Shown here: piece by piece, positions 1 through 57,405 of the stretch
Position numbering within the stretch: position 1 is the first letter of the stretch
Layout: each line of letters opens with the position of its first letter
Source: a phage
Length of the DNA stretch: 59,352 nt
Sequence record: PZ564402.1
Reading direction: 5' to 3' (one strand)
The notes under the pieces: generated by a model
The model's input: only the letters and a program-made list of their open reading frames with translations
What the model was told of the DNA's origin: nothing
Databases searched by the model: none
Made by a program: the position numbers and the translations under genes

Positions 1-29
1 TAACCACTCAACCAAATAAGGGGATCACC

Positions 30-578
30 ATGAAACTGAATATCACCGCGCCGGGCCTGTTCTTTAATCGTAGCGGCGACCGCGTCACCGTGGATCAAAT
101 CGTTTTAGAAAATAGCGCCGGGGCCGTCGTGTCATTCCCGGTTAAGGGCCGGATCTGGAAAATGTACCGGGGCGCATATCGTCCGCGTGAGTTTAAGATC
201 TGGACGGCGTCGGGCAAGTTTTACGCGGGCGAACAATCCCGATCGCCGTGGGATATTGTCGGCGAAGTTGTCGCGGACGATGTGCGCCCGGTCTACTGGC
301 AAGATCTGACCGATGACCAGAAAGCGCAAGCCGCCGACAAATATCACAATGGTGAAGGCACGCCGGGCGATTATTTCACCTATACGCCGGATCAATTCAT
401 CGTGATTAATGGTGACGTGTACGATCTGGACGCCGACGCGTCAGTCTATGAGGTCGAAGGGTTAAAAGGTCATGTGCGCATACTGGAAAGCACGAAGGCG
501 GACGGGGGCGCGTTGGCGGTGCAATGCGTCGAAGGTTGGGACGTGGTAAGCGTTTACCGGGTACAGGTGACATCATGA
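30..578 (+). CDS. hypothetical early protein (182 aa)
   Basis: ORF with ATG preceded by AAGGGGA RBS; part of rightward early operon; no recognisable motif. Confidence 0.55.
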   Translation: MKLNITAPGLFFNRSGDRVTVDQIVLENSAGAVVSFPVKGRIWKMYRGAYRPREFKIWTASGKFYAGEQSRSPWDIVGEVVADDVRPVYWQDLTDDQKAQAADKYHNGEGTPGDYFTYTPDQFIVINGDVYDLDADASVYEVEGLKGHVRILESTKADGGALAVQCVEGWDVVSVYRVQVTS

Positions 579-796
579 ATAAAACCGGATTTTCGGGGAA
601 CGCCGCAAGGGCCGCTATAAAATTCACCGCGTGCGGCGCGATCGTGGCGTTTATCGGGGCCGCCGTGTTTTTTGGTGACAACGTCGGGCCGTATAAAGTG
701 TTTTTGTATACCGTCGCTGGGGGCGTATGCGTGCGCCTGATTTGGCCGACTCAGGACGAAGGCGACGCGCTTATAAAACGGGATGACGGGCCGTAA
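575..796 (+). CDS. small hydrophobic/membrane protein (73 aa; start chosen at internal ATG MNKTGF)
   Basis: ATGA overlap with upstream ORF stop; hydrophobic core AIVAFIGAAVFF. Confidence 0.4.
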   Translation: MNKTGFSGNAARAAIKFTACGAIVAFIGAAVFFGDNVGPYKVFLYTVAGGVCVRLIWPTQDEGDALIKRDDGP

Positions 797-830
797 AGGT
801 GACGCGGCCGACGATTAAAGATAAAAGTTA

Positions 831-859
831 TTGACGCACGCCGCGTATATCATTTATAT
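831..859 (+). promoter_or_regulatory. sigma70-like promoter (-35 TTGACG, 17-nt spacer, -10 TTATAT) followed by UUCG-type leader hairpin
   Basis: Near-identical 47-bp copy at 57406-57452; A/T-rich upstream tract; lies in intergenic gap before 922. Confidence 0.6.
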
Positions 860-921
860 TTAAATTCCCTTCGGGGGCCGGGGGCAATGGGGCCGACGGT
901 TATCAAAACAGGTACATTAAA

Positions 922-2076
922 ATGACTCACGATCAAATCGTTGCAATGGTTGGAAAATACAATATCAAGGCCGATCGCGCCGTGTCTTATAACTATGATG
1001 TTTACGGTTCGACGCAAGTCGAGATCCGCGAGGTTGACGGCGGGTTATTAATCTGGCGTGCGTGGTCTTATGAATCCAACTTCGAAAACGTGTTAGAAAG
1101 CGCGCTCGATCATTCCGGCACACTGAAAACCGCCGAAGAAATTGCAGAACAGGAAGCCGCCGCACGCGCTCAAAAGCTCCGCAATGATGCGATTTTCTTT
1201 GAGGTTCACGGATTCGAAGATGATTTCATTTTGAACCTGTCCGACTTTACCCGCGCTGAAATCGAAGCGGAGATCATCGCGATGAATGCAGAATTAAACG
1301 CGGCAAGCGCCGACGCCGACGCGGTTGATCACGTTTTACGCTCAACCAATCCGGCTGGGGAATACGTTTATTTAAAGCGCGGTTACTGGATGTTAGATCT
1401 TGATGACGCGGAGATCCTGAACGCGCGCCCGGATATTCACATGGTTAGTCTTTACGACACGCCGATCGAATATGTGCCGTTTGAACAGGCCCGCAAAGAT
1501 GACCCGGAAAGCGATTTCATCAAACAACTTAAAGCGGGATATGTGACCGCCCCGACCGACTACGTCGATCGCGCGTGCGCCGCCGTTGAGCGTGGAAACG
1601 TTAACGCATCGGGGATCGTGCTGCATACCTTGCGCGACAAAATCGACGGCGAACATTTCGAAATCACGACACGTATTAGCCCGGCTGAATATCAGCTTTA
1701 TCGTGTGCGCGTTGTCGTGTCCTGCTGCATTGATGGCGCGTTTCATAGCGTCATTGAACTGGATCGCGATGTGAGCACGGTTGAGCACGTCCGCGACGTG
1801 GTGCGCGTCGGCTGCATGAAACAATATATCAAGCAAGCCCGCGCGACGTATGCCGCGACCGGGGCCGCCACGCTCAACAATGACAAGACGGCGACACGTA
1901 TCAAGATTAAAACCGTTGCGGGAATGACGTTGATCGCTAAAACCGAAGATGTGATTTTTTCAGATAGCGGCCTGTTTTGCTCCGCGTGGTTAATGCGTCT
2001 TGATTTGCTGGAAAACAAGACATATGCGCAAGCCGTCATGACGTCGCAGATCAAAACAATCGAATTCATCAAATAA
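922..2076 (+). CDS. hypothetical early protein (384 aa)
   Basis: Long ORF downstream of promoter 831-859; no recognisable motif. Confidence 0.6.
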   Translation: MTHDQIVAMVGKYNIKADRAVSYNYDVYGSTQVEIREVDGGLLIWRAWSYESNFENVLESALDHSGTLKTAEEIAEQEAAARAQKLRNDAIFFEVHGFEDDFILNLSDFTRAEIEAEIIAMNAELNAASADADAVDHVLRSTNPAGEYVYLKRGYWMLDLDDAEILNARPDIHMVSLYDTPIEYVPFEQARKDDPESDFIKQLKAGYVTAPTDYVDRACAAVERGNVNASGIVLHTLRDKIDGEHFEITTRISPAEYQLYRVRVVVSCCIDGAFHSVIELDRDVSTVEHVRDVVRVGCMKQYIKQARATYAATGAATLNNDKTATRIKIKTVAGMTLIAKTEDVIFSDSGLFCSAWLMRLDLLENKTYAQAVMTSQIKTIEFIK

Positions 2077-2128
2077 GGATCATCACAATGGATATTATCG
2101 TCATTAAACTGGATCGGGGGTGGTAATT

Positions 2129-2335
2129 ATGGCGGGTTTATGGTTTTTCGTTGTGACGATATGCGGCGCGGTTGGCGCTGATAATATGGCGGCGGATTGT
2201 CATGATTATGTTATTGACGCGGGGATCTCGTTTGACGATTGCCGCGCGTCAGTGGCGGCTTATCCGGGCCGCATTGGCCTGTATTCCGCGCGTTGTGACC
2301 GGGGCGAAGTGGTAGAAGGCGGCAAACATGAATAA
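2129..2335 (+). CDS. small Cys-containing hydrophobic protein (start at ATG 2129 rather than GTG 2120)
   Basis: GGGGGTGG RBS 5 nt upstream of ATG; hydrophobic N-terminus GLWFFVVTICGAVGA. Confidence 0.45.
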   Translation: MAGLWFFVVTICGAVGADNMAADCHDYVIDAGISFDDCRASVAAYPGRIGLYSARCDRGEVVEGGKHE

Positions 2336-2579
2336 AGGCCAATACCGCGCCGCACGTCGCCTTATACGTGATAACGGGATCTATGCGTTGCGATGGATGG
2401 ACGATGACACCGCGCCGATCATGGACGTGTTAGCAAGCCAGCCGGATGACCAGTTAGAGACAAGGGCGGCGATCGTGGCGTACAGCGCCCGCGCCGGGCT
2501 TCCCTGCAATGTGCGTAAAACGGCGTCACTCGACCTTTTAGCGCGGTACAATGACCGCAAGGCGGCCCACAATGGATAA
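2328..2579 (+). CDS. hypothetical protein (83 aa)
   Basis: ORF with start overlapping upstream stop (translational coupling). Confidence 0.45.
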   Translation: MNKGQYRAARRLIRDNGIYALRWMDDDTAPIMDVLASQPDDQLETRAAIVAYSARAGLPCNVRKTASLDLLARYNDRKAAHNG

Positions 2580-2823
2580 GGCGCAACGCTTAACGGCTGC
2601 ACGTATGGCGGCGGATCGGTATGCCGGGATCGCACGGGCAAAAGGTTTTAAACGTCATGCGGATGGCGTGACTTTTATCCGGGCAGATGCGGATCTAACG
2701 TGGGATGACCGGGCGCGCGCTTTCCGTGTGACGCTGTACAAAATGGACGGGGCCGCACGTCTTGCCGTTGCCACTGTACGCGCGAATGCGATGCTTAACG
2801 TGCTGTTAAAATCGTTTATCTGA
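2572..2823 (+). CDS. hypothetical protein (start at internal ATG MDKAQRL)
   Basis: 8-nt overlap with upstream gene; last gene before terminator. Confidence 0.45.
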   Translation: MDKAQRLTAARMAADRYAGIARAKGFKRHADGVTFIRADADLTWDDRARAFRVTLYKMDGAARLAVATVRANAMLNVLLKSFI

Positions 2824-2892
2824 ATCCCGGATTTTCGGGGAACGCCGCACGATCCCTTTTAACCTGTTTTGACATATTCCCCATGTATCAAA

Positions 2893-2919
2893 GGCCGCCT
2901 ATCCGGGCGGCTTTTTTAT
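2893..2919 (+). terminator. rho-independent terminator (GCCGCC stem / GGCGGC, T6 tract)
   Basis: GC stem-loop followed by TTTTTTATT directly after last gene of rightward early operon. Confidence 0.65.
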
Positions 2920-2927
2920 TGCCTTTC

Positions 2928-3126
2928 TGATATACGCGGCGTGCGTTGCGGTGCCGTGTAGCGGGCCTATGGTGTGCCGTGTGCGATGATATACGCGGCG
3001 TGCGTATGGCGGCCCGTCCTGCTTTCTTCCTTCCTGATATACACGACGTGCATCAATGCGGCCTTATGTGTGCGCTATGCCGTATGGCGGCCCGCTATGG
3101 TGCTGCATGATATACGCGGCGTGCGT
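2928..3126. repeat. four direct repeats of 19-bp TGATATACGCGGCGTGCGT (one degenerate) with nested TATGGCGGCCCG sub-repeats
   Basis: Copies at 2928, 2987, 3035 (degenerate), 3108; noncoding; about 240 bp from candidate cos. Confidence 0.7.
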
Positions 3127-3363
3127 TGGTGTGCGGCTGTATATGGCTATCTATTCCCCTTTCTATGGTATCCCCTGCTATATGGTGTGACGGGGCGTTA
3201 TTGTATGCCCTTATTTCGACCGCTACGGGGGGCAGACGGGGCGATCGTGGTGTAAGGTATGCCTACCTATTACGATCTATCTTGCGTGGCGTGGCGGGCG
3301 GCTGAGGAAGAATTACGGTCACGATTTCAAAAAGGTACTTACCCGCCCGTCGGTCAGCCCGGG

Positions 3364-3375
3364 GGTGCGCAGAGC
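3364..3375 (+). other. candidate cohesive-end site (cos) 12-mer GGTGCGCAGAGC
   Basis: Exact match to the 12-nt 5' cohesive end I recall being reported for Salmonella phage Chi; lies in a noncoding interval beside direct repeats. Confidence 0.45.
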
Positions 3376-3605
3376 CGCTTTCTCGGAAAATGGGCCGGAT
3401 CTGCCATAGCCCCGCTTTGCGAAATCAATAACTTAGCCGAAAAATCGAATTTCTCCCGTAGGGAGGCACCGAAACAGGGTGCTGCCCGGGGTGCGGGCGG
3501 AACGGCGCTTTAGCCCCTCAACCGATTGATAGTATTACGGTTATACCCGGTGGGCTGGTGCTGACCAAGTCCACGGCAGCAGGCATCAGACACAAGATAC
3601 AACTC

Positions 3606-3868
3606 GGTTACAGGAAATTCGACTTGTAACCTATCCGTAAATCCTTAATTCTACTACCTTTTATCAACTATTAGTTACAAGTTACAAGAAATAAGGGTAA
3701 ATAGGATAAGAAATAGGGATAAAACGTTGTATATTGTAGATCACATCGTCACACATTATATGTATGTATAGGGTTAGCGGCACTTGTAACCTGTACTCAA
3801 AACATGGTCAAGGCCAGTCGTGACGCGGCTTTCAGGGGTTACAAGACGATCATGCGTTTTTGTAACCT
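3606..3868. promoter_or_regulatory. AT-rich control region with multiple GGTTACAA/TTGTAACC inverted and tandem repeats (operator-like)
   Basis: Inverted pairs 3606-3631 and 3838-3868, tandem GTTACAAGTTACAAG at 3673-3690, further copy at 3784-3791; upstream of HTH gene 3925. Confidence 0.5.
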
Positions 3869-3924
3869 CAACGGTTAACAGCACGTCGAACATACGCGAC
3901 GTGTATCAAACGGGGAAACTAAAA

Positions 3925-4251
3925 ATGGCTAGTGCAGTTGAAAAGTTAAAATGCGGAACGTCAGTGGAACGGGCGTTGAACAAAAGAGCGGCTGATAAAG
4001 TGTGCGACGGGGTTAAAAAGCGTCTCAGAAATGCAATAGTCGCGGAAATCGACGACAAGGGGTACACCAATTCCGAAGTTTGCAGCATGACTTGCGTACC
4101 AAGCAGCCGGGTAAGGGAGTTGAAGGAAAAACAAGGAGACGGATTCCAGCTAGAAACGCTTTTACGCATGGCAATTACGCTTAAATTGGACATTGAAATG
4201 GTCACATTCTGGAATCACGACGTGATCAAAGCGCGCGTAAAAATATCGTGA
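3925..4251 (+). CDS. XRE/Cro-like helix-turn-helix transcriptional regulator (109 aa)
   Basis: HTH-like segment GYTNSEVCSMTCVPSSRVRELKEKQ; GGGGAA RBS; start placed at internal ATG because upstream part of ORF overlaps operator repeats. Confidence 0.55.
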   Translation: MASAVEKLKCGTSVERALNKRAADKVCDGVKKRLRNAIVAEIDDKGYTNSEVCSMTCVPSSRVRELKEKQGDGFQLETLLRMAITLKLDIEMVTFWNHDVIKARVKIS

Positions 4252-45120: not shown

Positions 45121-45582
45121 TTAAATGGTCGGGTGGGTAATAACCACCGTACGTTCACCCTCGATTGTCTGGTGGTACCGCAGCGAGGACACCAGATGAT
45201 CGAGGCTATTGAAGACCGGGATATTCAGCCTCTTCGCCTCTTCCACCTCCGCGCGGGTACCTGAACTACGCATCGCATCTTCACCAATCAGCAGAACAGC
45301 GTCACAGCGGCGCATCAATTCCATCGTGCATTCCAGCCAGTATTCGTCCGGGGTCTCGCCTTCGGTCTTGTGCTCGAAGTTGGCCGTGTTCAGGTGCGGC
45401 GTGACCGGGAACATCTTATGGACGTAGAGTTGATCGACAACCGACACGGCCGTCTCTTCGGCTTTCAGGATGTTGACCGTCGTCGGAACGGTGCAGCCCG
45501 AACCGATGATGTACGGGCGGTACGGCCCGGCCAGATAGATCATGACGGGCTTGGCCGCCGGGTTACACATATTCACGTTCAT
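45121..45582 (-). CDS. nucleoside 2-deoxyribosyltransferase-superfamily protein (Ndt/Rcl-like)
   Basis: N-terminal IYLAGPY motif characteristic of this fold; last gene of leftward early operon. Confidence 0.45.
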   Translation of the reverse strand: MNVNMCNPAAKPVMIYLAGPYRPYIIGSGCTVPTTVNILKAEETAVSVVDQLYVHKMFPVTPHLNTANFEHKTEGETPDEYWLECTMELMRRCDAVLLIGEDAMRSSGTRAEVEEAKRLNIPVFNSLDHLVSSLRYHQTIEGERTVVITHPTI

Positions 45583-45938: not shown

Positions 45939-46652
45939 TTAGTTGGCATCGGTTGAGTCCTCGCATAATGGTATGAAGTCCTTCGGGCCGTCGCCTGAAC
46001 CGGGGAAGCGCCGGAAGACCATTTCGTCTTCGATGGTCAGTTTATCCTTGCTGTTCCCGCGACGATAGAAGTCGGCCATGCCGCTGCCGTACGTGCGGTC
46101 AATCCCGGCACCATACGGATCTTGCGGGCAAAGTTCCAGCGCCAGCACTTCTCGCCAGTCCGGCCGATCGATACGGCAGACCGTACGATAGTTGTTCGAC
46201 ACCCGGCAGTATCCCGAGGCAATCAGCGTTTCCACCAACCGGGCCTGTTCCTTGCCACGCATCGTTTTCGCGCGCTTGACGTCCTCTTTCCTTGCCCGGG
46301 CGAAATACTCCCGCGAGAATCGGCTACCGACGTTCTCCGCGAAGATGCGCAGGTCTTTGATGACCATGCCCCATTTCCGGCGGCTACCCTCGTCCACGTA
46401 GCGGATGGCTCCGGCGTAGCGAAGCAGCATGGCGTCGGTCAGGCGGGCATTCTTCGGGTCTTTGGCTTTCCACCAGCCGTACACTTCCACCATGCGGGCC
46501 ATCGCCTTGTCGCTATACCACAACTCGGCGTGGCTGGTGGGCGAGTATTCCGGGTAAGACTTTGCGCCGCCGTCAAACGCCCGGTAGCAGTACCAGATCC
46601 CGCCGCTGTACTGGAAGTGCGGTATCTTGTGAAGTTCTTTCATCGTAGCCAT
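45939..46652 (-). CDS. hypothetical early protein (start at internal ATG MATMKEL)
   Basis: GAGGA RBS before ATG 46652; ATGA-type overlap with upstream gene. Confidence 0.5.
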   Translation of the reverse strand: MATMKELHKIPHFQYSGGIWYCYRAFDGGAKSYPEYSPTSHAELWYSDKAMARMVEVYGWWKAKDPKNARLTDAMLLRYAGAIRYVDEGSRRKWGMVIKDLRIFAENVGSRFSREYFARARKEDVKRAKTMRGKEQARLVETLIASGYCRVSNNYRTVCRIDRPDWREVLALELCPQDPYGAGIDRTYGSGMADFYRRGNSKDKLTIEDEMVFRRFPGSGDGPKDFIPLCEDSTDAN

Positions 46653-46653
46653 G

Positions 46654-47106
46654 TCAGTCCTCGGCCAGTTCAGGGTTAATGGTAAACCGCAGTCCGTACT
46701 TAAAGTCGTTTTTGGACAGCAGGCTGATGATTTCATCCGAGTTTTCTATCTTGATGCCCTTCTCGGCGAGCGCTTCCCTCGGCGGGAGCCACGGATCGAT
46801 AGTCAACTGGCGGTATACCGGGGTCATGTGGATCGGCGACCCATCGCGAACACTGTACGGCAGCGGGTATGGTCGGCCAGAACGAGGGTGGATACGTCGC
46901 GGCCCGGGCGAACGGGTAATGCCGTAGAACGATGCCATAACGTCGGTCAGCCCTTTGCCGTACATCGAGCGCACCACCTCTTCGTCGCCTTTCAGCAGGC
47001 GTTTGACGATGTGCCGGACGAACGGGTACAGATCCCACTTCGCGCGTTGGCGGATGACCGAAGCCTGTCGGCGGGCCTCCTGCTGGAATAATGATCCGCG
47101 TTTCAT
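46654..47106 (-). CDS. hypothetical early protein (150 aa)
   Basis: Coupled ORF. Confidence 0.45.
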   Translation of the reverse strand: MKRGSLFQQEARRQASVIRQRAKWDLYPFVRHIVKRLLKGDEEVVRSMYGKGLTDVMASFYGITRSPGPRRIHPRSGRPYPLPYSVRDGSPIHMTPVYRQLTIDPWLPPREALAEKGIKIENSDEIISLLSKNDFKYGLRFTINPELAED

Positions 47107-47735: not shown

Positions 47736-47765
47736 AATATAGGTTATACACGCGACGTATGTCAA
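47736..47765 (-). promoter_or_regulatory. early promoter, conserved family (-35 TTGACA, spacer with TACGTCGCGTGTA, -10 TATATT)
   Basis: One of four near-identical minus-strand modules (47.7, 50.2, 53.5, 56.8 kb), each intergenic. Confidence 0.6.
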
Positions 47766-49193: not shown

Positions 49194-50168
49194 TTATTCC
49201 TTCGGTGGATTTGATTGGTGGCGATTTAGCCAGATGACAATTCCGGCAGTATAATTGATCACGCCGAGCAACTCCCTAACCCTTTGGTCATGTGTTGGCA
49301 GGTTGACACCCTCGACGACCTTTTTGCATACCTGATACACCAAGCCGAGCGGGCTATTGATCAGGTCAGAAATGGCGTTCATCGGCTGCTGGCTGAACGG
49401 CAGGTCATTCGCGTGGCGCTCGCGTCCTTTACCATACGCGGCTTGTGTCAGCGCATCATGTAGCACTTTGACTAATTCGGAATAATCGTTGCTGTCTTTG
49501 ACGTTCCGGAATTCGTACTGCCATGACCTGGCGGCCGACGGTGCAACGGCTTCCGGCGCGACGAGGGCTTCATCAAGCGGCCATCCCTGCGCGAAGGCGA
49601 ACATGATGTAATTCATCGCGTCTATGTACTGATTCTCTTCGAGACAGCGGCGGATGGCGTCGGAACATTGCTTTGGCCAGTCCGGCTGCATCCATCCCAA
49701 TTCCAGTCCCGGGTTTTTGCGCTCGAACTGAATCAGACGATCCAGCATGTATCCGAAGACCTGTTCGCAGATTTCCGCCGTGGGTTGGCTCAACGCTGGC
49801 CGCTCCAGATGGAATACCGTGACAGTCGGGTCTGTCTTGCCTTTCGGCAGTTTCAGGTATTTCTGTTCGGTATCGAGCAGCGACTGAATCAGGCCAAGAA
49901 CGTGCTCCTTCATGATCAATGGCGTGGCGTATCCGGCTTGGTCTAACCCTAACTGCGCCAGCACGGCCTTGCGGAAATCCTCGGCGTCGTACTGATCCTT
50001 GCTTTTCGGCGAGGATTGCAGGTCATTGATAATCTTCACTGCGTGGTCGCGCATATCGCCGTCGTCCTCGTAGTCAAAACTGTCCATGTTCAGCGCGTTG
50101 AGGATGGCTTCTTCAAACTTCTCGCTGCTGGTCTTTCTCAGACCGCGTTCTTTCTTCACGTCTACCAT
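49194..50168 (-). CDS. hypothetical early protein (324 aa)
   Basis: First ORF downstream of promoter 50208-50236. Confidence 0.5.
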   Translation of the reverse strand: MVDVKKERGLRKTSSEKFEEAILNALNMDSFDYEDDGDMRDHAVKIINDLQSSPKSKDQYDAEDFRKAVLAQLGLDQAGYATPLIMKEHVLGLIQSLLDTEQKYLKLPKGKTDPTVTVFHLERPALSQPTAEICEQVFGYMLDRLIQFERKNPGLELGWMQPDWPKQCSDAIRRCLEENQYIDAMNYIMFAFAQGWPLDEALVAPEAVAPSAARSWQYEFRNVKDSNDYSELVKVLHDALTQAAYGKGRERHANDLPFSQQPMNAISDLINSPLGLVYQVCKKVVEGVNLPTHDQRVRELLGVINYTAGIVIWLNRHQSNPPKE

Positions 50169-50207
50169 AATAAAAAACTCCCGTTGGTGGATTAACCTTC
50201 GGGAGTA

Positions 50208-50236
50208 ATATTAATTACACATGTCGCGTATGTCAA
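50208..50236 (-). promoter_or_regulatory. early promoter, conserved family (-35 TTGACA, -10 TAATAT) followed by leader hairpin + U-tract
   Basis: Conserved module; hairpin CTCCCG...CGGGAG then T6 before RBS. Confidence 0.6.
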
Positions 50237-50245
50237 ACGCTTTCT

Positions 50246-50932
50246 TTAAATCTCGTCCCACATCTTGATCCAGCGGTTCCGGATCTTGGCCGATACGTTA
50301 GCCAGTGGTGCGCCGATTTCCAGTAGCGTTTCACGGTCGATATACTCGTTGGGGTGAATGCGGTCAGTCGCCGGGTCGAAGATGTGGATGGCCGCGCCGA
50401 ACCCGGCCGACGTGATTTCGCTGCTGCCTTCCTTCGGCCGGAACCAGACTGGCGGTTCGAACCCGATGCGCCCTTTGATGAAGATGGTGCGCGTGGCGAT
50501 GGTGTCCGGCCACCAGCTTTCCGACGTCGCGGACTTGGTCAGCCAGATGGTGCCTGCGCCTTTGGCCCGCTCCTCGTCGGCCTTGCGCATGATGTGGGTC
50601 ATCCCTGTCAGGTGTTCTTTCCCGGCGCGCTTCTGGCTGTATGGCGGGTTAGCGTAGGCCCAAACGCGGGTGTTCGAGTCGAACCCGTCGCTGGCGTGGA
50701 TCTCGGCCAGACGCTTCGCCCAATCCTGCCGCAGCGCGTTATCTTCGGCCGTAAAGAAACGCTGGCATTTGGCGTTCTGGCCGTCGGTGAACAGGTCAAG
50801 CACGATTGGCCCGTACAGCTTGTTAATCGCTTGGAACAGCCATTCCGGCGTACGCCATTGGTCGCCGATCAACTTCGGTTCGTGCTCGTCCATGCCTTTC
50901 AGCGCGTTCAGCGCATCAACGTACTGGCTCAT
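50246..50932 (-). CDS. dam: DNA N6-adenine methyltransferase (phage Dam type)
   Basis: Catalytic NPPY motif (AYANPPYSQ) and N-terminal WRTPEWLF typical of phage Dam MTases. Confidence 0.7.
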   Translation of the reverse strand: MSQYVDALNALKGMDEHEPKLIGDQWRTPEWLFQAINKLYGPIVLDLFTDGQNAKCQRFFTAEDNALRQDWAKRLAEIHASDGFDSNTRVWAYANPPYSQKRAGKEHLTGMTHIMRKADEERAKGAGTIWLTKSATSESWWPDTIATRTIFIKGRIGFEPPVWFRPKEGSSEITSAGFGAAIHIFDPATDRIHPNEYIDRETLLEIGAPLANVSAKIRNRWIKMWDEI

Positions 50933-52032
50933 TAAAACGTCTCTCCTTTCAGCAGGTCATCGGCCTCGACGTAGAAGGCTTCGTATTTGTCGGGTGACAT
51001 CGTGTACAGCGGCTGGCCGCCCGTATATTTATGGGTCAGGTCGGTGTACGTGGATGCGCTCATGTCGAGTTGAATACGGTTCGCCATGTCCTTGACCATT
51101 TGCAACGTGACTGACTTCGGTTGTGGTGACAGCAGCAGGTTATCGCACATCGCATGGATGTACGTGACGATCGGTGCTGGCAGGCCCGCCACCAGATTCG
51201 CGTTCAGGCGGTAATGCGGCGTGTCAAGGTACTCGGCGGCATGGTCAGGGTACGCCCGGAAGCCGGACAGGATCACCATGCGGGCCGTGGTCAGGTCGAT
51301 GGCCGCCAGTTCTTCCCACGCAGCGCGGACGGACGCGGACTTCCGGGTGTAGCGTACGTCATTCTGCATCGACTTGATCGTGGCGCGCAGCTTAGTCGTT
51401 TCCCGGTCGTGCTCGGTGTTATCTTCGGCGTGACGGCGGTGGGCCTCGGATAACTGGATTTGCAGACTGGTGACAGCGCTTTCCGCCGTATCGAGACTGC
51501 GGGTCTTGGTATCCAGCGCTTCGCGTAGTGCGGCCAGTTCGCCCGGCGTGATGTTGGCGAGGCGCAGCGGTTCGAAGTCTTTCAGCGTCAGCGGGCCTTT
51601 GCTGGTCATCTGCTCGGTCAGGCGCTGTATGTCCTGCATGGCGAGGCTTCCGGCCAGATCGATGCTGGTGGTGCCTGCAATCTTTGCGTATTTAGCGCTG
51701 GCACGTACCGTTTCGAGGATGGTGCTCAGGATCTGCTGGCACTGCTCGCGCTCCCACTCGGTCACTTCTGCGGCCGTTGGCGTAACCGCCGATGGGCGTT
51801 TAACTCGCGTCCAGTGAATGCGGATTTCCCGGGGCATTGCGTCGCCGTCCACCTCGACTTCATCGACTGACTGGATGTTCGCTTCCGGCGTTCCGCAGTT
51901 ATCGCGAAGGTATTTATGCGCCACGCACAGGATATGATTTGGGGATATGCCGCCTTCCTGCTCGATAGCCATGACGAGGATGTCTTTCAGGCTTTTATCG
52001 TCGGTGATGTATGTGACTTTTTGTTCGCTCAT
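50932..52032 (-). CDS. hypothetical early protein (366 aa)
   Basis: ORF. Confidence 0.5.
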   Translation of the reverse strand: MSEQKVTYITDDKSLKDILVMAIEQEGGISPNHILCVAHKYLRDNCGTPEANIQSVDEVEVDGDAMPREIRIHWTRVKRPSAVTPTAAEVTEWEREQCQQILSTILETVRASAKYAKIAGTTSIDLAGSLAMQDIQRLTEQMTSKGPLTLKDFEPLRLANITPGELAALREALDTKTRSLDTAESAVTSLQIQLSEAHRRHAEDNTEHDRETTKLRATIKSMQNDVRYTRKSASVRAAWEELAAIDLTTARMVILSGFRAYPDHAAEYLDTPHYRLNANLVAGLPAPIVTYIHAMCDNLLLSPQPKSVTLQMVKDMANRIQLDMSASTYTDLTHKYTGGQPLYTMSPDKYEAFYVEADDLLKGETF

Positions 52033-52703
52033 TTGGATGCCTTTAAAATGTTAGAGAATTCAACGATGTTGACAAGGTTATGCTGACGTCCGCTGTTCGA
52101 TCTGGCCCGGCTGGCCGTCTCCATTACCCGGGGATTCATTTCAACGCGCGGCGTGCGCCCGGTACCGTATTGATCCATGCTGCTCATGCGGTCAACGCAG
52201 ATGCTGTACATCTGGCTGGCCGTCATCCAGTTACCCATCGTATTGATGAAAAATTCCATCGCCTGCAATGCGTCGAGCGCGTAGACCATCGTGGCCGCGT
52301 TGTCCGTGTACAGCACGTACGCGCCGACGGACTGCACGACCTTATCAACGCCGCTCATGTACTCGGCGATCCACTCCGGCGGCACTGGAGGAACCGCACG
52401 ACGTTCACCGCTCGCAGGGGTACCGTACGGATAGGCGAAGGCCGGGCTGGCCGAAACGCGACGTCCGGTAGGCGTGGTCGTCACCGTTGCTTTCGGCTCG
52501 TCTTTAGGCAGATTCTGGAGGCAGGCCGGGCCGCCTTGCCAGCGCTTCCAGACCGTTTTCTTCGGCTCGTCGGACTCCGGCGCGGTGCATGGTGGTGGGT
52601 CGATGTCATTCGCGTCCCATGTCTTCTGACAGTCCCGGCAATAGAATTGGTCACTATGCTGCACGACTGATAAGTGGCTTCCGCCAGTGGCTTCGATTCT
52701 CAT
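52029..52703 (-). CDS. hypothetical early protein (start at internal ATG MRIEATGG)
   Basis: GAAGGGGAAG RBS; ATGA overlap with upstream gene stop. Confidence 0.5.
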   Translation of the reverse strand: MRIEATGGSHLSVVQHSDQFYCRDCQKTWDANDIDPPPCTAPESDEPKKTVWKRWQGGPACLQNLPKDEPKATVTTTPTGRRVSASPAFAYPYGTPASGERRAVPPVPPEWIAEYMSGVDKVVQSVGAYVLYTDNAATMVYALDALQAMEFFINTMGNWMTASQMYSICVDRMSSMDQYGTGRTPRVEMNPRVMETASRARSNSGRQHNLVNIVEFSNILKASK

Positions 52704-53446
52704 ATCTCTACTTCCCCTTCGGTTAAAATGCGAAACGCGCCGCCGCCGACTTTCCAGCCCTGCCACACGTCGGCCAGAAGCGCCGCCCGGTACTTCCGGC
52801 GGAACACGTTGTAAATCATGTCCCAATTCTCACTCGGCAGGTCAGACGCGATACCACCGCTCTCCCACGCCCAATCACGCGGCGACTGCGTCAGCCATTT
52901 CAGCGGAGGACGGGGGTAGGTGTACGGATTCGCCAGACCGCAGGCCACCAGCCCGCGTTTAATCCATGCACGTTGCCACCATAAATCGTGAACCGTCTTC
53001 CCGGCGATGAATTCTTCGTCCAGCATCGCGCACAGGATCGTCATGGCGGCCTTTTCTGCGTTCATGGGTACGCCAATGTCGTCCCAATCTTCCAGCGCGG
53101 CCCTGACGCCGTCAGCGCTGCCGTCGTCGTTGCTGGTGGATGAACGGTCATGCAGGATGACGTCGAACACCATGAACGGGAACACGACCTGTTCGCCGTT
53201 CCGCGTGTATTTCGGGTTAGGCTCGCTGAACATAGCCGAGTACAGACGGCGGATGTGGTCTTCGAGATCCGGGACAAACCCGGTAAGTGGTGCGCCGTCG
53301 TCAGCGTTGACCATTTCGAGGTCGGTGCCGTTGGTGCGGATCAGGCAGCGTGGCCCGTATGGCAGGGGGAAAACGTACAGCACTTCTTTCCCGATCAACG
53401 CTTGGTTGAAAGGCACGAATTTCATTACGTGGGTCTTCATCGGCAT
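52700..53446 (-). CDS. hypothetical early protein (248 aa)
   Basis: AAAGGAG RBS; first gene after promoter 53470-53498. Confidence 0.55.
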   Translation of the reverse strand: MPMKTHVMKFVPFNQALIGKEVLYVFPLPYGPRCLIRTNGTDLEMVNADDGAPLTGFVPDLEDHIRRLYSAMFSEPNPKYTRNGEQVVFPFMVFDVILHDRSSTSNDDGSADGVRAALEDWDDIGVPMNAEKAAMTILCAMLDEEFIAGKTVHDLWWQRAWIKRGLVACGLANPYTYPRPPLKWLTQSPRDWAWESGGIASDLPSENWDMIYNVFRRKYRAALLADVWQGWKVGGGAFRILTEGEVEI

Positions 53447-53469
53447 GACTCCTTTGTTATGGTACGGGA

Positions 53470-53498
53470 ATATTAGTCGTACACGCGACGTACGTCAA
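53470..53498 (-). promoter_or_regulatory. early promoter, conserved family (-35 TTGACG, -10 TAATAT)
   Basis: Conserved spacer TACGTCGCGTGTACGAC; intergenic. Confidence 0.6.
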
Positions 53499-53635
53499 TA
53501 ACTTTATTCGAGGCAAAAGAAAGCCCGCGTAAAGGGATTGCGGGCTTTTGGAAGGTGGCATCCGAAGATTACCACTGGCTTAAAGCGGACAACGCAGGAG
53601 CCGATAAGGAAGCACTATGCCGAGTCCGCAGTTAA

Positions 53636-54151: not shown

Positions 54152-55225
54152 TTAAACCTCGTCGTCGTCTTCGTCGTTCAGCGTTCCGGTGTACTCAACA
54201 ACCTGCCCGGCCTCGTCCAGCACGCTGATCACCGCACGCAGGGACTTATCGAGTTGGAACAGGTTCGCCATCATGGTCAGGAACTGGCCGCCATCGGTGC
54301 CGTAACGTTCGAGCGTGGCGTCGTAGTTCGCATCGACGTCGGCCTCGCCGATATGGATACCGGACAGGATGGCTTTGTCGGACAGGCGGAAGTACACGGT
54401 GTCGATGCCCGGGCATTGCGTATCGACTTCGAGATCCAGTGCGCGGACAGTCCAGTGGCGGGACAGCAGGTCAACCACCGCCTCGTCTTTGAAGATGTCC
54501 GTGTCCTTCATCTTAACGTCGTCACCATCGTCGTGTTTCAGGTGGATAAACGCATCGCCCTTGATGCCGTCCTGCTGGCCGAGAACCGCGCGCTGCATTA
54601 ACTGGCGCAGCTCATACTCGCTCGGCAGGAGGTGTTCGACGGGCCATGTGCCGAGCGCGGTACGGATCAGCGCGCTGCACTCTTCTGCCGTCTTCGCGCT
54701 CGACGTGAACACGTACACGAACGGGGCGGACAGGATGACGTTGACGCGGGACGGGCGGATAGGCGCGTATTTCAGCATTTCCGCTTCCACGTCGTCCTTC
54801 ATCTGCGCCCAATCCTTGCGGTTCGGCTCCCAACCCTCGATCTCTTTCTCCCGCAACGCGGCCATGCGCTTCACGACTTCATTTCGTACGCTGACGCCGG
54901 GCAACACACGTTCGCGCTTTTCGATCTGGAAGACGATGGCGTTTGTCCCGGGGATGGCGAGCGCAAACTTGCTGTCAACCTCTTCGCCGTACGCTGCAAA
55001 GCCCATTGTCTTGTAAGACGCCTCCGGCGGATCTGACACTTCATGCTTTTCGAGTGCATCGCTTAACGCTCCTTTAGCGAAAGACGTCACCGCCTCTTCG
55101 TCAACGTTCGGCAGATTCAGGATCAGGCGGTGCAGCGGCTTGACCTTCTCGTTACCGTCGTTGGCCGCGTCGTACAGCGCGCCGAGGTGCAAGATAATGG
55201 CTTTCTCATAACCCTTGATTTTCAT
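54152..55225 (-). CDS. RdgC-like recombination-associated protein with acidic C-terminal tail
   Basis: Segments VLPGVSVRNEVVKRMAALREKE and AEECSALIRTALGTWPVEHLLP resemble E. coli RdgC as I recall it; ends NDEDDDEV. Confidence 0.5.
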   Translation of the reverse strand: MKIKGYEKAIILHLGALYDAANDGNEKVKPLHRLILNLPNVDEEAVTSFAKGALSDALEKHEVSDPPEASYKTMGFAAYGEEVDSKFALAIPGTNAIVFQIEKRERVLPGVSVRNEVVKRMAALREKEIEGWEPNRKDWAQMKDDVEAEMLKYAPIRPSRVNVILSAPFVYVFTSSAKTAEECSALIRTALGTWPVEHLLPSEYELRQLMQRAVLGQQDGIKGDAFIHLKHDDGDDVKMKDTDIFKDEAVVDLLSRHWTVRALDLEVDTQCPGIDTVYFRLSDKAILSGIHIGEADVDANYDATLERYGTDGGQFLTMMANLFQLDKSLRAVISVLDEAGQVVEYTGTLNDEDDDEV

Positions 55226-55869: not shown

Positions 55870-56296
55870 TCAGCGGTTCCTCTTTCAGACGGTAGGTGAT
55901 GGTGTCCTGGCGAGTCGCGTCGATTTCCAGTTCAGGCATCTGCCCGGTGATCAGGCGGGACGGCGTCAGCACGGCGGTGCGCAGGCCGTTCTCGAACATG
56001 ATGTTGGCCGCCGTGACCAGCGAAATGCTTTCGATATGGTCTTGGGTCTGGTCGAGGCGGCGCTGTAGCAGTTCTACCTTCTCGGCGTTCTCGTCCGGAA
56101 GGTCGAAGGCGGCACGCAGCCCGGCGATCAATGCGATGGCGTCCGCGCGGGTCAGGGGGGTGGCGATCTCGGTGTCACCGTTGTCCTTCTCGATGTAGAT
56201 CTCGCCCTCTTTTTGGCCGGGCTTCTTATAGATAAAGGCCGTACGGGCAATGTCGCGTACCGGACTCAGTTCAATAGGGTGGTGCGTTGTTTTCAT
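55856..56296 (-). CDS. hypothetical early protein (146 aa)
   Basis: ORF. Confidence 0.45.
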   Translation of the reverse strand: MKTTHHPIELSPVRDIARTAFIYKKPGQKEGEIYIEKDNGDTEIATPLTRADAIALIAGLRAAFDLPDENAEKVELLQRRLDQTQDHIESISLVTAANIMFENGLRTAVLTPSRLITGQMPELEIDATRQDTITYRLKEEPLNAAD

Positions 56297-56367
56297 CGGT
56301 GTGCGTCCTATAGGGTGTCAGGTCAAAAGGGTGGTACGCCATTTTTCAGGCGTGCCGTCCTACGTTT

Positions 56368-56739
56368 TTAAACTTCGTCGTCGTCCGCGACGTCGGTGGC
56401 CGTACAGGTTACGACGGCCTGAATGAACATGCGGCCAGACGGGTAAGTCACCAGCGCGGACTCCATGCTGAACCGTTGGCCGTGGTGCTTCATGGCATTC
56501 CGGATGGAGGAATTTAGGCTGGCCCGCATCTTCGCTTTGAGGGCATTGGCCTCGTCCTGTACCTGCGAAAGCGTACGGTCAAGCGGGAGTTCTTGGGACA
56601 GGGTGTACACGCCACCGACTTCCAGCGCAATGAGGTTCCCCACGACGCTGTACACGCGCACGCGTGACGGCAGTTCAACATCCGGCTCGGTCGTCATCAT
56701 TGCGCCAGTCAGTTCGGCCGGGCTTAGTTCTTTGCTCAT
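56368..56739 (-). CDS. hypothetical early protein with acidic C-terminus (123 aa)
   Basis: GGAG RBS; first gene after promoter 56782-56810; ends DVADDDEV. Confidence 0.5.
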   Translation of the reverse strand: MSKELSPAELTGAMMTTEPDVELPSRVRVYSVVGNLIALEVGGVYTLSQELPLDRTLSQVQDEANALKAKMRASLNSSIRNAMKHHGQRFSMESALVTYPSGRMFIQAVVTCTATDVADDDEV

Positions 56740-56781
56740 TGGGATGGCTCCAGTTGGTTCGTTAAATGTTACGTTCGGAGA

Positions 56782-56810
56782 ACAATAGTTCTACACGCGA
56801 CGTATGTCAA
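56782..56810 (-). promoter_or_regulatory. early promoter, conserved family (-35 TTGACA, -10 TATTGT)
   Basis: Conserved spacer TACGTCGCGTGTAGAAC; drives leftward early operon. Confidence 0.55.
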
Positions 56811-56871
56811 TTCATTTCATCCGGCAATTATGATGACCGGGCGAAACTCCAGTTTAGTTTCTGTCGGCGAG

Positions 56872-57100
56872 GTTTCCGAAGTAAGACCCGGCGTCGCGGG
56901 GCCGAGCGGGGGCAGGCTGACTTTTTCGAGTAAGCCCGGAACGCCAACCCTTCCGTCGGCCAGCTTTTTCAAGTAAGCCGGACAGCCGGGTGAAATTGGC
57001 CCGACGCTGGTGGATAAAAACCGCAACCGGGTAGGTTTTTGAAGTAAGGACTGGCGCAGTCGTTCAAAAATTTTGGGCAGGCTAGGTTTTTCAAGTAAGC
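56872..57100. repeat. five iteron-like direct repeats, consensus (G)GTTTTTCAAGTAAGCCCGG
   Basis: Copies near 56872, 56921, 56964, 57033, 57083 in the 600-bp noncoding gap between divergent early promoters. Confidence 0.65.
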
Positions 57101-57405
57101 CCGTCGGAAATTTTTGTAGAGAATGTCAGGCCCGGCGCGGCCCGGCGTCATGGTGTGCAGCCGTTTTTGGTGGGATTTTGTACAAATCGTTATAAATCAA
57201 TGACTTAACCTATGCGCCGATCGACCTGTTTTGGCCCGGTTATCGTGGATTTTTCGTATAGAATTCAAGGGTTTAGGACGTGGCGCCGCGTGCCGTTTGG
57301 CGGTGTGCCGGGGCGGGGGCCGTGGGGCGCGGCGGTGCAATGCGGCCCGGCGTGGCGGTCGGTGGCGCTTTTATGTGCGGTTACTCAAATAATATGAAAA
57401 AAGAT

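What the first reader, a model, noticed from the sequence alone, without database searches (positions are those of the whole stretch)
50246..50932. Phage Dam methyltransferase in the early region
Early expression of an N6-adenine methyltransferase is a common anti-restriction strategy and may also affect host mismatch repair or packaging.
Basis: established knowledge. Interest (0 to 1): 0.35.

Follow-up and report, generated by a model that had tools for sequence, protein, structure and literature searches.

The report
Chi-like phage orphan adenine methyltransferase gene
The reported gene is real and encodes a stand-alone DNA adenine methyltransferase of the well-known phage "T1/HP1/SfV Dam" family in a Chi-like flagellotropic phage; this is an ordinary gene that is already annotated in relatives, and its target site and biological role remain untested.

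Summary
The ORF is exactly as reported: 50246-50932 on the minus strand, 228 aa. It scores far above curated cut-offs for Pfam PF05869 "Dam" (104 bits against 28) and TIGR01712 phage N-6-adenine-methyltransferase (137 against 97). It carries the invariant NPPY catalytic motif, evolves under purifying selection (dN/dS 0.11-0.31), and gives a confident AlphaFold model (pLDDT 93).

The window is a circularly permuted Chi-like phage genome (Chivirus; the cos sequence lies at 3364-3375). This gene is conserved in about 100 relatives and was noted in the phage chi genome paper of 2015. It is not related to E. coli or T4 Dam (PF02086). No nuclease partner was detected next to it, so it looks like an orphan enzyme.

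GATC specificity is only inferred. The characterised GATC enzymes of the family share 25-32% identity with it (VT2 25% over 189 aa; T1 and HP1 30-32% over the N-terminal ~80 aa only). SfV Dam shares 47%.

"Early" is plausible but unproven. The gene is the last of a four-gene unit headed by a conserved sigma-70-like promoter. An anti-restriction role is untested. GATC is not avoided (296 sites), whereas 23 of 64 palindromic hexamers are absent, so site avoidance looks like the main visible anti-restriction signature.

Verdict: correct, ordinary, already known.

The parts
50246..50932 (-). Coding sequence of the 228-aa orphan N6-adenine DNA methyltransferase (PF05869 / TIGR01712, 'phage Dam' family).
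   Evidence: ORF. HMM hits and PADLOC MTase_II at 1.3e-53. dN/dS 0.11-0.31. AlphaFold model with pLDDT 93.2.
50636..50650 (-). Codons 95-99, NPPYS: catalytic motif IV, the pocket for the target adenine.
   Evidence: Invariant in 32 homologues. Also invariant in T1, HP1 and SfV Dam and aligned with NPPYS of VT2 Dam. It is the only in-gene [DNS]PP[YFWH] motif in the window.
50846..50863 (-). Codons 24-29, DQWRTP: N-terminal family signature (D-x-W-x-T-P).
   Evidence: D24, W26, T28 and P29 are invariant across the Chi, SfV, T1 and HP1 proteins.
50780..50800 (-). Codons 45-51, LDLFTDG: first beta strand plus loop. This is the inferred cofactor-binding region (a degenerate motif I).
   Evidence: D46, F48, D50 and N53 are invariant in 32 homologues. 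Strand E43-47 appears in the model. The assignment to SAM binding is inference.
50943..50947 (-). Shine-Dalgarno AGGAG 10 nt upstream of the ATG. The ATG overlaps the TAA stop of the upstream gene (TAATG at 50930-50934), which suggests translational coupling.
   Evidence: Sequence read.
50932..52032 (-). Upstream gene (366 aa, phrog_8386, function unknown). Its stop overlaps the methyltransferase start. No nuclease or defence signature.
52029..52634 (-). Second gene of the putative unit (201 aa, phrog_8641, function unknown).
52700..53446 (-). First gene of the putative unit (248 aa, phrog_6886, function unknown).
53469..53498 (-). Sigma-70-like promoter TTGACG-17-TAATAT. It is the candidate promoter of the four-gene unit that ends with the methyltransferase, and one of five copies of an extended 30-bp motif.
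   Evidence: 5 matches, 0 expected in shuffles. An equivalent site, TTGACA-17-TAGTAT, occurs in Serratia phage Smarc5 at L007 1428-1456.
53520..53548 (-). Terminator-like hairpin followed by a U-rich tract, just upstream of the promoter. It marks the boundary with the preceding unit.
   Evidence: dG -14.8 kcal/mol, z -2.35.
50207..50236 (-). Sigma-70-like promoter TTGACA-17-TAATAT, starting 10 nt after the methyltransferase stop codon. It begins the next unit (gene 49194-50168) and so marks the 3' boundary of the methyltransferase unit.
   Evidence: The hexamers are invariant in Smarc5, phage 37 and PMBT21.
50177..50206 (-). Leader or terminator-like hairpin (CUCCCG...CGGGAG followed by U6). 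It contains the ribosome-binding site of gene 49194-50168.
   Evidence: dG -14.6, z -4.0, 0 of 200 shuffles as stable. A compensatory change that keeps the stem is seen in Smarc5.

Best explanation
The gene encodes a functional, stand-alone (orphan) S-adenosylmethionine-dependent DNA N6-adenine methyltransferase of the phage T1/HP1/VT2/SfV 'Dam' family (PF05869).

Proposed mechanism:
- The enzyme is a compact single-domain protein. It places the target adenine in the NPPY pocket and transfers a methyl group to N6. The target is most probably the A of GATC, as in the characterised members of the family.
- It is transcribed by host RNA polymerase from a consensus-like sigma-70 promoter at 53498-53470. 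It is the last, translationally coupled gene of a four-gene unit in the non-structural (replication/recombination) arm of a Chi-like phage.
- It therefore acts on replicating phage DNA. The likely benefit is that progeny DNA is fully methylated even when replication outruns the host's limiting Dam. That would protect against methylation-sensitive GATC-overlapping restriction and avoid MutH/SeqA action on under-methylated DNA.

What is shown: gene, family membership, catalytic motif, selection, fold confidence, genomic context, promoter-like sites and their conservation.

What is inferred: activity, GATC target, timing of expression and biological benefit.
For: Family assignment:
- PF05869 at 104.4 bits against 28.1, TIGR01712 at 137.1 against 97.05, phrog_111 at 1.2e-69, PADLOC MTase_II at 1.3e-53.
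- NPPYS, D24/W26/T28/P29, D46 and N53 are invariant from Chi-like phages to T1, HP1 and SfV Dam.

Functionality:
- dN/dS is 0.11-0.31.
- The AlphaFold2 model has pLDDT 93.2 and pTM 0.90.
- Its structural neighbours are phage N6-adenine methyltransferases in BFVD (E 1e-12, TM about 0.59). In the PDB the weak best hits are mostly N6-adenine methyltransferases of RNA and DNA, alongside other class I SAM methyltransferases.

Conservation: the gene is present in about 100 Chi-like phage records at 90-99% identity.

Orphan status: the four neighbouring genes have no PADLOC hits and no Pfam hits.

GATC target:
- M.EcoVT2Dam is reported to target GATC (PMC6602927).
- M.EcoT1Dam and a 35%-identical relative, M.Btr190III, methylate GATC (PMC4996451).
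- SfV Dam, 47% identical over 214 aa, is annotated 'dam' with its own promoter.
- GATC is not depleted: 296 sites, observed/expected 1.32 by composition and 0.84 by Markov model.

Expression context:
- Promoter-like sites occur at 53498 and 50236, with equivalents in Serratia phage Smarc5.
- The gene sits in a minus-strand block with an RdgC-like gene.
- In HP1 the family member is the last gene of the early PR operon.
Against: - No experiment on any Chi-like phage methyltransferase was found in the searchable literature.
- Identity to the experimentally characterised GATC enzymes is low: VT2 25% over 189 aa, and T1 30% and HP1 32% over about 80 N-terminal residues only.
- The Chi/SfV subfamily has extra segments (about residues 72-90, 100-110 and 160-175) where the others have gaps. 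These could alter target recognition.
- No solved structure of the family exists, so cofactor and DNA contacts are inferred.
- The overall count of promoter-like sites in the region is not above shuffles (13 against 9.3 +/- 2.9). Only the extended 30-bp motif is significant.
- The usual hosts (Salmonella, E. coli) already methylate GATC, so the selective benefit is unclear.
Confidence: 0.8

Rival explanations
1. It is an active DNA adenine methyltransferase, but its specificity is not GATC. It could recognise another short motif or have relaxed, near non-specific activity, giving broader protection against restriction.
For: - It is only 25-32% identical to the enzymes with proven GATC specificity.
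- It has subfamily-specific insertions, including the 160-175 loop between two long strands, which has the lowest pLDDT in the model.
- A T1Dam relative showed significant off-target activity when cloned (PMC4996451).
- The genome shows strong selection from restriction systems: 23 of 64 palindromic hexamers are absent.
Against: - Every characterised member of the family that I could document targets GATC, despite low mutual identity.
- The closest named homologue, SfV orf41, is annotated as dam.
- If methylation were broad, the extreme avoidance of many A-containing palindromes such as AAGCTT, GATATC, CTGCAG and GGATCC would be less necessary.
Confidence: 0.15
2. The enzyme's main substrate is host DNA rather than phage DNA. 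Over-methylation or rapid re-methylation of host GATC sites would perturb mismatch repair, oriC sequestration or Dam-regulated genes, as a form of host takeover.
For: The gene sits among non-structural genes behind a host-type promoter. There are no GATC clusters or regulatory GATC patterns in the phage genome itself.
Against: There is no direct evidence. A lytic phage with about 300 GATC sites in its own genome is the obvious substrate. This role is not exclusive of the main explanation.
Confidence: 0.04
3. It is an RNA adenine methyltransferase or a phosphoadenosine-phosphosulfate (PAPS) reductase, as some RefSeq records label the orthologues.
For: - The best PDB fold hits include the cap-specific adenosine methyltransferase PCIF1, tRNA m6A TrmM and KsgA.
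- RefSeq annotates orthologues as 'phosphoadenosine phosphosulfate reductase'.
- phrog_33262, which carries that name, matches at 5.9e-50.
Against: - The fold hits are weak (E at or above 2e-3, TM at or below 0.42). DNA adenine methyltransferases score in the same range.
- The phrog_33262 match covers only profile positions 283-478 of 495, the methyltransferase half of a fusion family.
- No PAPS-reductase Pfam domain was found at E up to 1.
- The curated equivalog model TIGR01712 is passed.
Confidence: 0.01

Closest known systems
SfV Dam (orf41 of Shigella flexneri phage SfV) and the equivalent 'long' phage N-6-adenine-methyltransferases of enterobacterial prophages
   Same: It is 47% identical over 214 aa. 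It has the same length class (217 against 228 aa), the same motifs (DQWRTP, LDLFTDG, NPPYS, GRIGFE) and the same extra segments relative to T1, HP1 and VT2. It is also an orphan gene in a replication/nin-type early region.
   Different: SfV is a temperate lambdoid phage, whereas Chi-like phages are described as lytic (PMC4342425). The C-terminal helix differs. From my memory of Allison et al. 2002 (J Bacteriol 184:1974), which is not held in the library, orf41 was shown experimentally to be a Dam homologue. This is recalled, not verified here.
M.EcoT1Dam (phage T1), M.HinHP1Dam (phage HP1) and M.EcoVT2Dam (Stx2 phage VT2-Sakai): the founding GATC-specific members of PF05869
   Same: They belong to the same Pfam/TIGR family and share D-x-W-x-TP, L-D...N and NPPYS in the same order. 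They are solitary genes in early or replication operons. GATC specificity is documented for VT2 and T1.
   Different: Identity is only 25-32%. For T1 and HP1 the BLAST alignment covers only the N-terminal half. They are shorter (173-175 aa for HP1 and VT2) or have other insertions (T1). They lack the Chi/SfV segments at residues 100-110 and 160-175.
E. coli Dam / phage T4 Dam (PF02086, alpha-class)
   Same: They have the same presumed chemistry (N6-adenine methylation, probably at GATC) and the same general class I methyltransferase fold with a (D/N)PP(Y/F) motif.
   Different: They are not detectably homologous in sequence: there is no PF02086 hit. Foldseek TM is only 0.26-0.29 over 111-139 columns. 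The Chi protein is smaller and has no separate target-recognition domain.

Membership tests
PF05869 / TIGR01712 phage N-6-adenine-methyltransferase ('T1/HP1 Dam' family) | Score above the curated whole-protein cut-off of the family models | tested here: met
   PF05869 scores 104.4 bits (cut-off 28.1), covering profile positions 4-166 of 169. TIGR01712 (equivalog) scores 137.1 bits (cut-off 97.05).
PF05869 / TIGR01712 phage N-6-adenine-methyltransferase ('T1/HP1 Dam' family) | Catalytic motif IV (D/N)PP(Y/F), plus the N-terminal D-x-W-x-T-P and L-D...N motifs in the family's order | tested here: met
   NPPYS is at residues 95-99, DQWRTP at 24-29 and LDLFTDGQN at 45-53. All are invariant in alignments with T1, HP1 and SfV and aligned with VT2.
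PF05869 / TIGR01712 phage N-6-adenine-methyltransferase ('T1/HP1 Dam' family) | Compact single-domain methyltransferase fold shared with other family members | tested here: met
   The AF2 model has pLDDT 93.2. BFVD neighbours are phage DNA N-6-adenine-methyltransferases at E 1e-12 to 1e-9 and TM 0.5-0.6. PDB matches are weak (TM at or below 0.42) because no family member has been solved.
PF05869 / TIGR01712 phage N-6-adenine-methyltransferase ('T1/HP1 Dam' family) | SAM-dependent methylation of the adenine in GATC | not testable with these tools
   This is only inferred from the documented specificity of VT2Dam, T1Dam and M.Btr190III, which are 25-35% identical. It needs methylome sequencing or DpnI/MboI digestion.
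E. coli Dam / T4 Dam family (PF02086, MethyltransfD12) | Match to the PF02086 model, or structural similarity to Dam | tested here: not met
   There is no PF02086 hit at E up to 1. phmmer against PDB sequences found no Dam. Foldseek to E. coli Dam chains gives TM 0.26-0.29 at E above 0.04.
Type II restriction-modification system (methyltransferase with cognate endonuclease) | An adjacent restriction endonuclease gene | tested here: not met
   The three upstream genes and the one downstream gene have no PADLOC hits, no Pfam hits and only unknown-function PHROGs. This absence of hits is evidence for orphan status, not proof.
Phosphoadenosine phosphosulfate reductase (RefSeq label of the orthologues) | PAPS-reductase domain | tested here: not met
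   There is no such Pfam domain. The phrog_33262 match is confined to profile positions 283-478 of 495, the methyltransferase half of a fusion family.
Early gene class of the phage | Transcription early in infection by host RNA polymerase | tested here: inconclusive
   A consensus-like sigma-70 promoter heads the unit and is conserved in a divergent relative. However, no expression data exist and none were found in the literature.

The most novel reading that the evidence does not exclude
The Chi/SfV-type 'long' subfamily of PF05869 has extra loops at residues 100-110 and 160-175 and no solved structure. It may have a target specificity or substrate preference different from GATC duplex DNA, for example a relaxed motif or a preference for replicating or single-stranded DNA. 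That would give broader protection and complement the genome's extreme palindrome avoidance. In that case the methyltransferase would be a new specificity class within a family assumed to be uniformly Dam-like.
Probability: 0.12. Interest if true: 0.4.

Novelty: already known. Interest (0 to 1): 0.1.

Why it matters
It matters little beyond correct annotation. The gene is a conserved, already annotated orphan adenine methyltransferase of Chi-like phages. The phage chi genome paper of 2015 lists a DNA methylase-like gene in this arm (PMC4342425), and later Chivirus papers assign it to phrog_111/PF05869 (PMC9409062).

Some practical value remains:
- The RefSeq label 'phosphoadenosine phosphosulfate reductase' on the orthologues is wrong.
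- The name 'Dam' should not be read as orthology to E. coli Dam or as proof of GATC specificity.
- Chi-like phages are candidates for therapy and biocontrol, so knowing whether their DNA is self-methylated would help predict host range across restriction-proficient strains.
- The family lacks any solved structure.

Tried and rejected
- Sequence search of the PDB found nothing relevant. Foldseek against the PDB gave only weak hits, E at or above 2e-3, so no structural template exists to read off DNA-recognition residues.
- I looked for GATC clusters such as those at P1 pac or oriC, and for GATC avoidance. The largest clusters are no larger than random placement gives. The longest GATC-free gap (56198-57219, 1021 bp) is within expectation.
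- I compared GATC-containing hexamers to infer Dam protection. GGATCC occurs 0 times, AGATCT 14, TGATCA 16 and CGATCG 29. The result is inconclusive.
- I checked for a second methyltransferase. The 'DNA methylase' label of phage 37 SP37_66 (the homologue of window 45939-46736) is unsupported: phrog_8098 has unknown function and there is no Pfam hit. No other in-gene NPPY-type or 5mC motif exists.
- I tested neighbours for a restriction endonuclease or defence partner and found none.
- Literature searches found no experimental data on Chi-like phage methylation or transcription timing. M.EcoGIX turned out to be plasmid-borne and irrelevant. The family of M.EcoGV could not be established. The SfV genome paper and Fang et al. 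2012 are not held.
- The PAPS reductase annotation was rejected.

Full report
**Observation**

The window holds an ATG-to-TAA ORF of 228 codons at exactly 50246-50932 on the minus strand. Its start codon overlaps the TAA stop of the upstream gene (TAATG), and an AGGAG lies 10 nt upstream.

The ORF scores far above curated thresholds:
- Pfam PF05869 'DNA N-6-adenine-methyltransferase (Dam)': 104.4 bits against 28.1.
- NCBIfam equivalog TIGR01712 'phage N-6-adenine-methyltransferase': 137.1 bits against 97.05.
- phrog_111 'DNA methyltransferase': 1.2e-69.
- PADLOC type II methyltransferase models: 1.3e-53.

A search of the large protein collection gave 165 homologues. All 120 listed carry PF05869. 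Against four orthologues dN/dS is 0.11-0.31.

**What the window is**

The 4.5 kb around the gene is 92-95% identical to about 100 Chi-like phage genomes (Chivirus, Casjensviridae). These come from Salmonella, E. coli and related hosts.

The 12-base cohesive-end sequence published for phage chi, GGTGCGCAGAGC (PMC4342425), occurs once, at 3364-3375. The window is therefore a circular permutation of a whole genome.

The methyltransferase protein is 90-99% identical in 103 phage records. It is 78% identical in Serratia phage Smarc5, 62-63% in Klebsiella Yonseivirus phages and about 50% in Cronobacter phage JC01. It is a conserved gene of this phage group.

The phage chi genome paper already lists a 'DNA methylase-like' gene in this arm. 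A 2022 study assigns the Chivirus gene to phrog_111/PF05869 and suggests escape from restriction (PMC9409062).

**Anatomy of the protein**

An alignment of 32 homologues shows 40 invariant positions. They include:
- D24, Q25, W26 and T28 (the DQWRTP motif).
- D46, F48, D50 and N53 (the LDLFTDGQN motif).
- N95-P96-P97-Y98-S99.
- W140, W141 and P142.
- G154 and R155.

With T1, HP1 and SfV Dam added, D24, W26, T28, P29, D46, N53 and NPPYS remain invariant. NPPY is the catalytic motif IV of N6-adenine methyltransferases (established knowledge).

AlphaFold2 gives a confident model (pLDDT 93.2, pTM 0.90). It is a compact alpha/beta protein. The lowest confidence lies around residues 171-180. This is the loop between two long strands and is specific to the Chi/SfV subfamily. 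It is a plausible DNA-recognition element, but that is inference.

The structural neighbours support the assignment:
- In BFVD they are phage N-6-adenine-methyltransferases (E 1e-12, TM about 0.59).
- In the PDB nothing is close. Foldseek gives E at or above 2e-3 and TM at or below 0.42. The top hits are PCIF1, lmo1582, TrmM, KsgA, CamA, type I M subunits, E. coli Dam and M.TaqI.
- phmmer against PDB sequences finds nothing relevant.

The family therefore has no solved structure.

**What 'Dam' means here**

The protein is not an orthologue of E. coli or T4 Dam. There is no PF02086 hit, and the TM-score to E. coli Dam is 0.26-0.29.

Within PF05869 it belongs to a 'long' subfamily together with SfV Dam (47% identity over 214 aa). 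It is distant from the founding members:
- T1 Dam: 30% over 82 aa.
- HP1 Dam: 32% over 78 aa.
- VT2-Sakai Dam: 25% over 189 aa.

Published work states that M.EcoVT2Dam targets GATC (PMC6602927). It also states that M.EcoT1Dam and a 35%-identical relative, M.Btr190III, methylate GATC, the latter with off-target activity (PMC4996451). From memory, Allison et al. 2002 showed SfV orf41 to be a functional Dam homologue. That paper is not held, so this is unverified.

GATC is the best guess for the target (I put it at about 0.6-0.7), but it is an extrapolation.

**Context and timing**

The gene lies in a minus-strand block of non-structural genes, roughly 44-57 kb in window coordinates. The block includes an RdgC-like recombination-associated protein (54152-55225) and a nucleoside 2-deoxyribosyltransferase-like protein (45121-45582). 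Most of the other genes have no known function.

A consensus scan found sigma-70-like sites in the intergenic gaps on the correct strand. An extended 30-bp motif, TTGACRTACGYNNCRTGTNNNNNTAATATT, matches five times with up to 3 mismatches, against 0 expected. The sites are 831-860 (+), 47736-47765 (-), 50207-50236 (-), 53469-53498 (-) and 56781-56810 (-).

The copy at 53498 is preceded by a terminator-like hairpin. It heads four tightly packed genes:
- 52700-53446
- 52029-52634
- 50932-52032
- the methyltransferase, 50246-50932

The copy at 50236 starts 10 nt after the methyltransferase stop and begins the next unit.

In Serratia phage Smarc5 the equivalent positions carry TTGACA-17-TAGTAT and TTGACA-17-TAATAT. 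The hairpin that follows the second promoter keeps its stem through a compensatory change.

This supports transcription by host RNA polymerase, which fits an early or middle class. HP1's family member is likewise the last gene of the early PR operon. However, no expression data exist for Chi-like phages in the searchable literature. 'Early' is plausible, not shown.

**Role**

No endonuclease or defence partner was detected next to the gene, and no other methyltransferase is recognisable in the window. The enzyme therefore looks like an orphan.

GATC occurs 296 times. The observed/expected ratio is 1.32 by composition and 0.84 by Markov model. It is not avoided, not clustered, and shows no pac- or ori-like arrays.

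The genome does show very strong avoidance of restriction-type palindromes:
- 23 of 64 palindromic hexamers are absent, and 30 occur at most twice.
- By contrast, 124 of 3352 (3.7%) non-palindromic hexamers with comparable expectation are absent.
- AGCT occurs 45 times against 224 expected, and CTAG occurs 7 times.

The visible anti-restriction strategy is therefore site avoidance. The methyltransferase may add protection of its own target. Alternatively, it may keep rapidly replicating DNA fully methylated in hosts whose own Dam is limiting. Neither role can be tested here.

**Rivals**

- A different or relaxed specificity is the only serious rival (about 0.15).
- Action mainly on host DNA is possible but unsupported (about 0.04).
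- An RNA methyltransferase or PAPS reductase is rejected (about 0.01). The RefSeq label 'phosphoadenosine phosphosulfate reductase' on orthologues appears to be carried over from that family name. The phrog_33262 match involves only the C-terminal, methyltransferase half of the profile, and no PAPS-reductase domain is present.
- A decayed gene is excluded by the invariant motifs and the dN/dS values.

**Verdict**

The gene is an ordinary, already known feature of Chi-like phages. The claims about timing and anti-restriction are reasonable generalities that remain untested. Novelty: already known. Interest: low (0.1).

Noticed in passing
window 831-860 (+), 47736-47765 (-), 50207-50236 (-), 53469-53498 (-), 56781-56810 (-): There are five copies of an extended 30-bp sigma-70-like promoter motif, TTGACRTACGYNNCRTGTNNNNNTAATATT (up to 3 mismatches allowed; 0 expected in shuffles). 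All lie in intergenic gaps and point at the downstream genes. The conserved spacer core, TACGTCGCGTGTA, looks like a shared operator or recognition element, which suggests a co-regulated promoter class. The two exact copies are also present in phage 37 and PMBT21, and equivalent sites occur in Serratia phage Smarc5.
   Followed up: partly
window 50177-50206 (-); a similar element follows the promoter at 47736-47765 (-): A leader hairpin, CUCCCGAAGG...CAACGGGAG followed by a U-run, lies directly after the promoter and contains the ribosome-binding site of gene 49194-50168. Its dG is -14.6 kcal/mol with z -4.0. In Smarc5 the stem is kept by a compensatory change (CUCCCG/CGGGAG to CCCCCG/CGGGGG). 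A related CCCGAAGG...CAACGGGG sequence follows the 47765 promoter. It could be a terminator for read-through from the methyltransferase unit, an mRNA-stabilising 5' hairpin or a translational control element.
   Followed up: partly
whole window: The genome shows extreme avoidance of palindromic restriction-type sites. 23 of 64 palindromic hexamers are absent, for example GCCGGC (0 against about 30 expected), CCATGG, CTGCAG, GTCGAC, CACGTG, CTCGAG and GGATCC. 30 of 64 occur at most twice. By comparison, 3.7% of comparable non-palindromic hexamers are absent. AGCT occurs 45 times against 224 expected, and CTAG 7 times.
   Followed up: partly
window 3364-3375 (+): This is an exact single match to the published 12-base cohesive end of phage chi (GGTGCGCAGAGC). 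The window is therefore a circularly permuted whole genome whose physical ends lie here, not at the window ends. A match at up to one mismatch is not rare by chance (about 0.6 expected), so the identification rests on homology to phage chi.
   Followed up: partly
orthologues in RefSeq phage records (e.g. NC_029045, NC_021783, NC_019417, NC_052999): The orthologous genes are labelled 'phosphoadenosine phosphosulfate reductase' in RefSeq, while the GenBank originals say DNA adenine methyltransferase. The label appears to come from phrog_33262, a fusion family. The protein matches only the methyltransferase half of that profile, positions 283-478 of 495.
   Followed up: yes
window 45939-46736 (-): The homologue in Salmonella phage 37 (SP37_66) is annotated 'DNA methylase'. 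Here the protein matches only phrog_8098 (unknown function) and no Pfam family, so that label is unsupported.
   Followed up: yes
window 45121-45582 (-): A 153-aa protein matches DUF7768 and, weakly, nucleoside 2-deoxyribosyltransferase (phrog_355 at 1.4e-31; PF05014 below its cut-off). It is a possible nucleotide-salvage or base-exchange enzyme at the end of the same minus-strand block.
   Followed up: no
window 1-4000: GATC density is about twice the genome average here: 22 and 16 sites per 2 kb against about 9 elsewhere. This is the plus-strand block of small genes next to the cos site. No tight cluster exceeds random expectation.
   Followed up: partly
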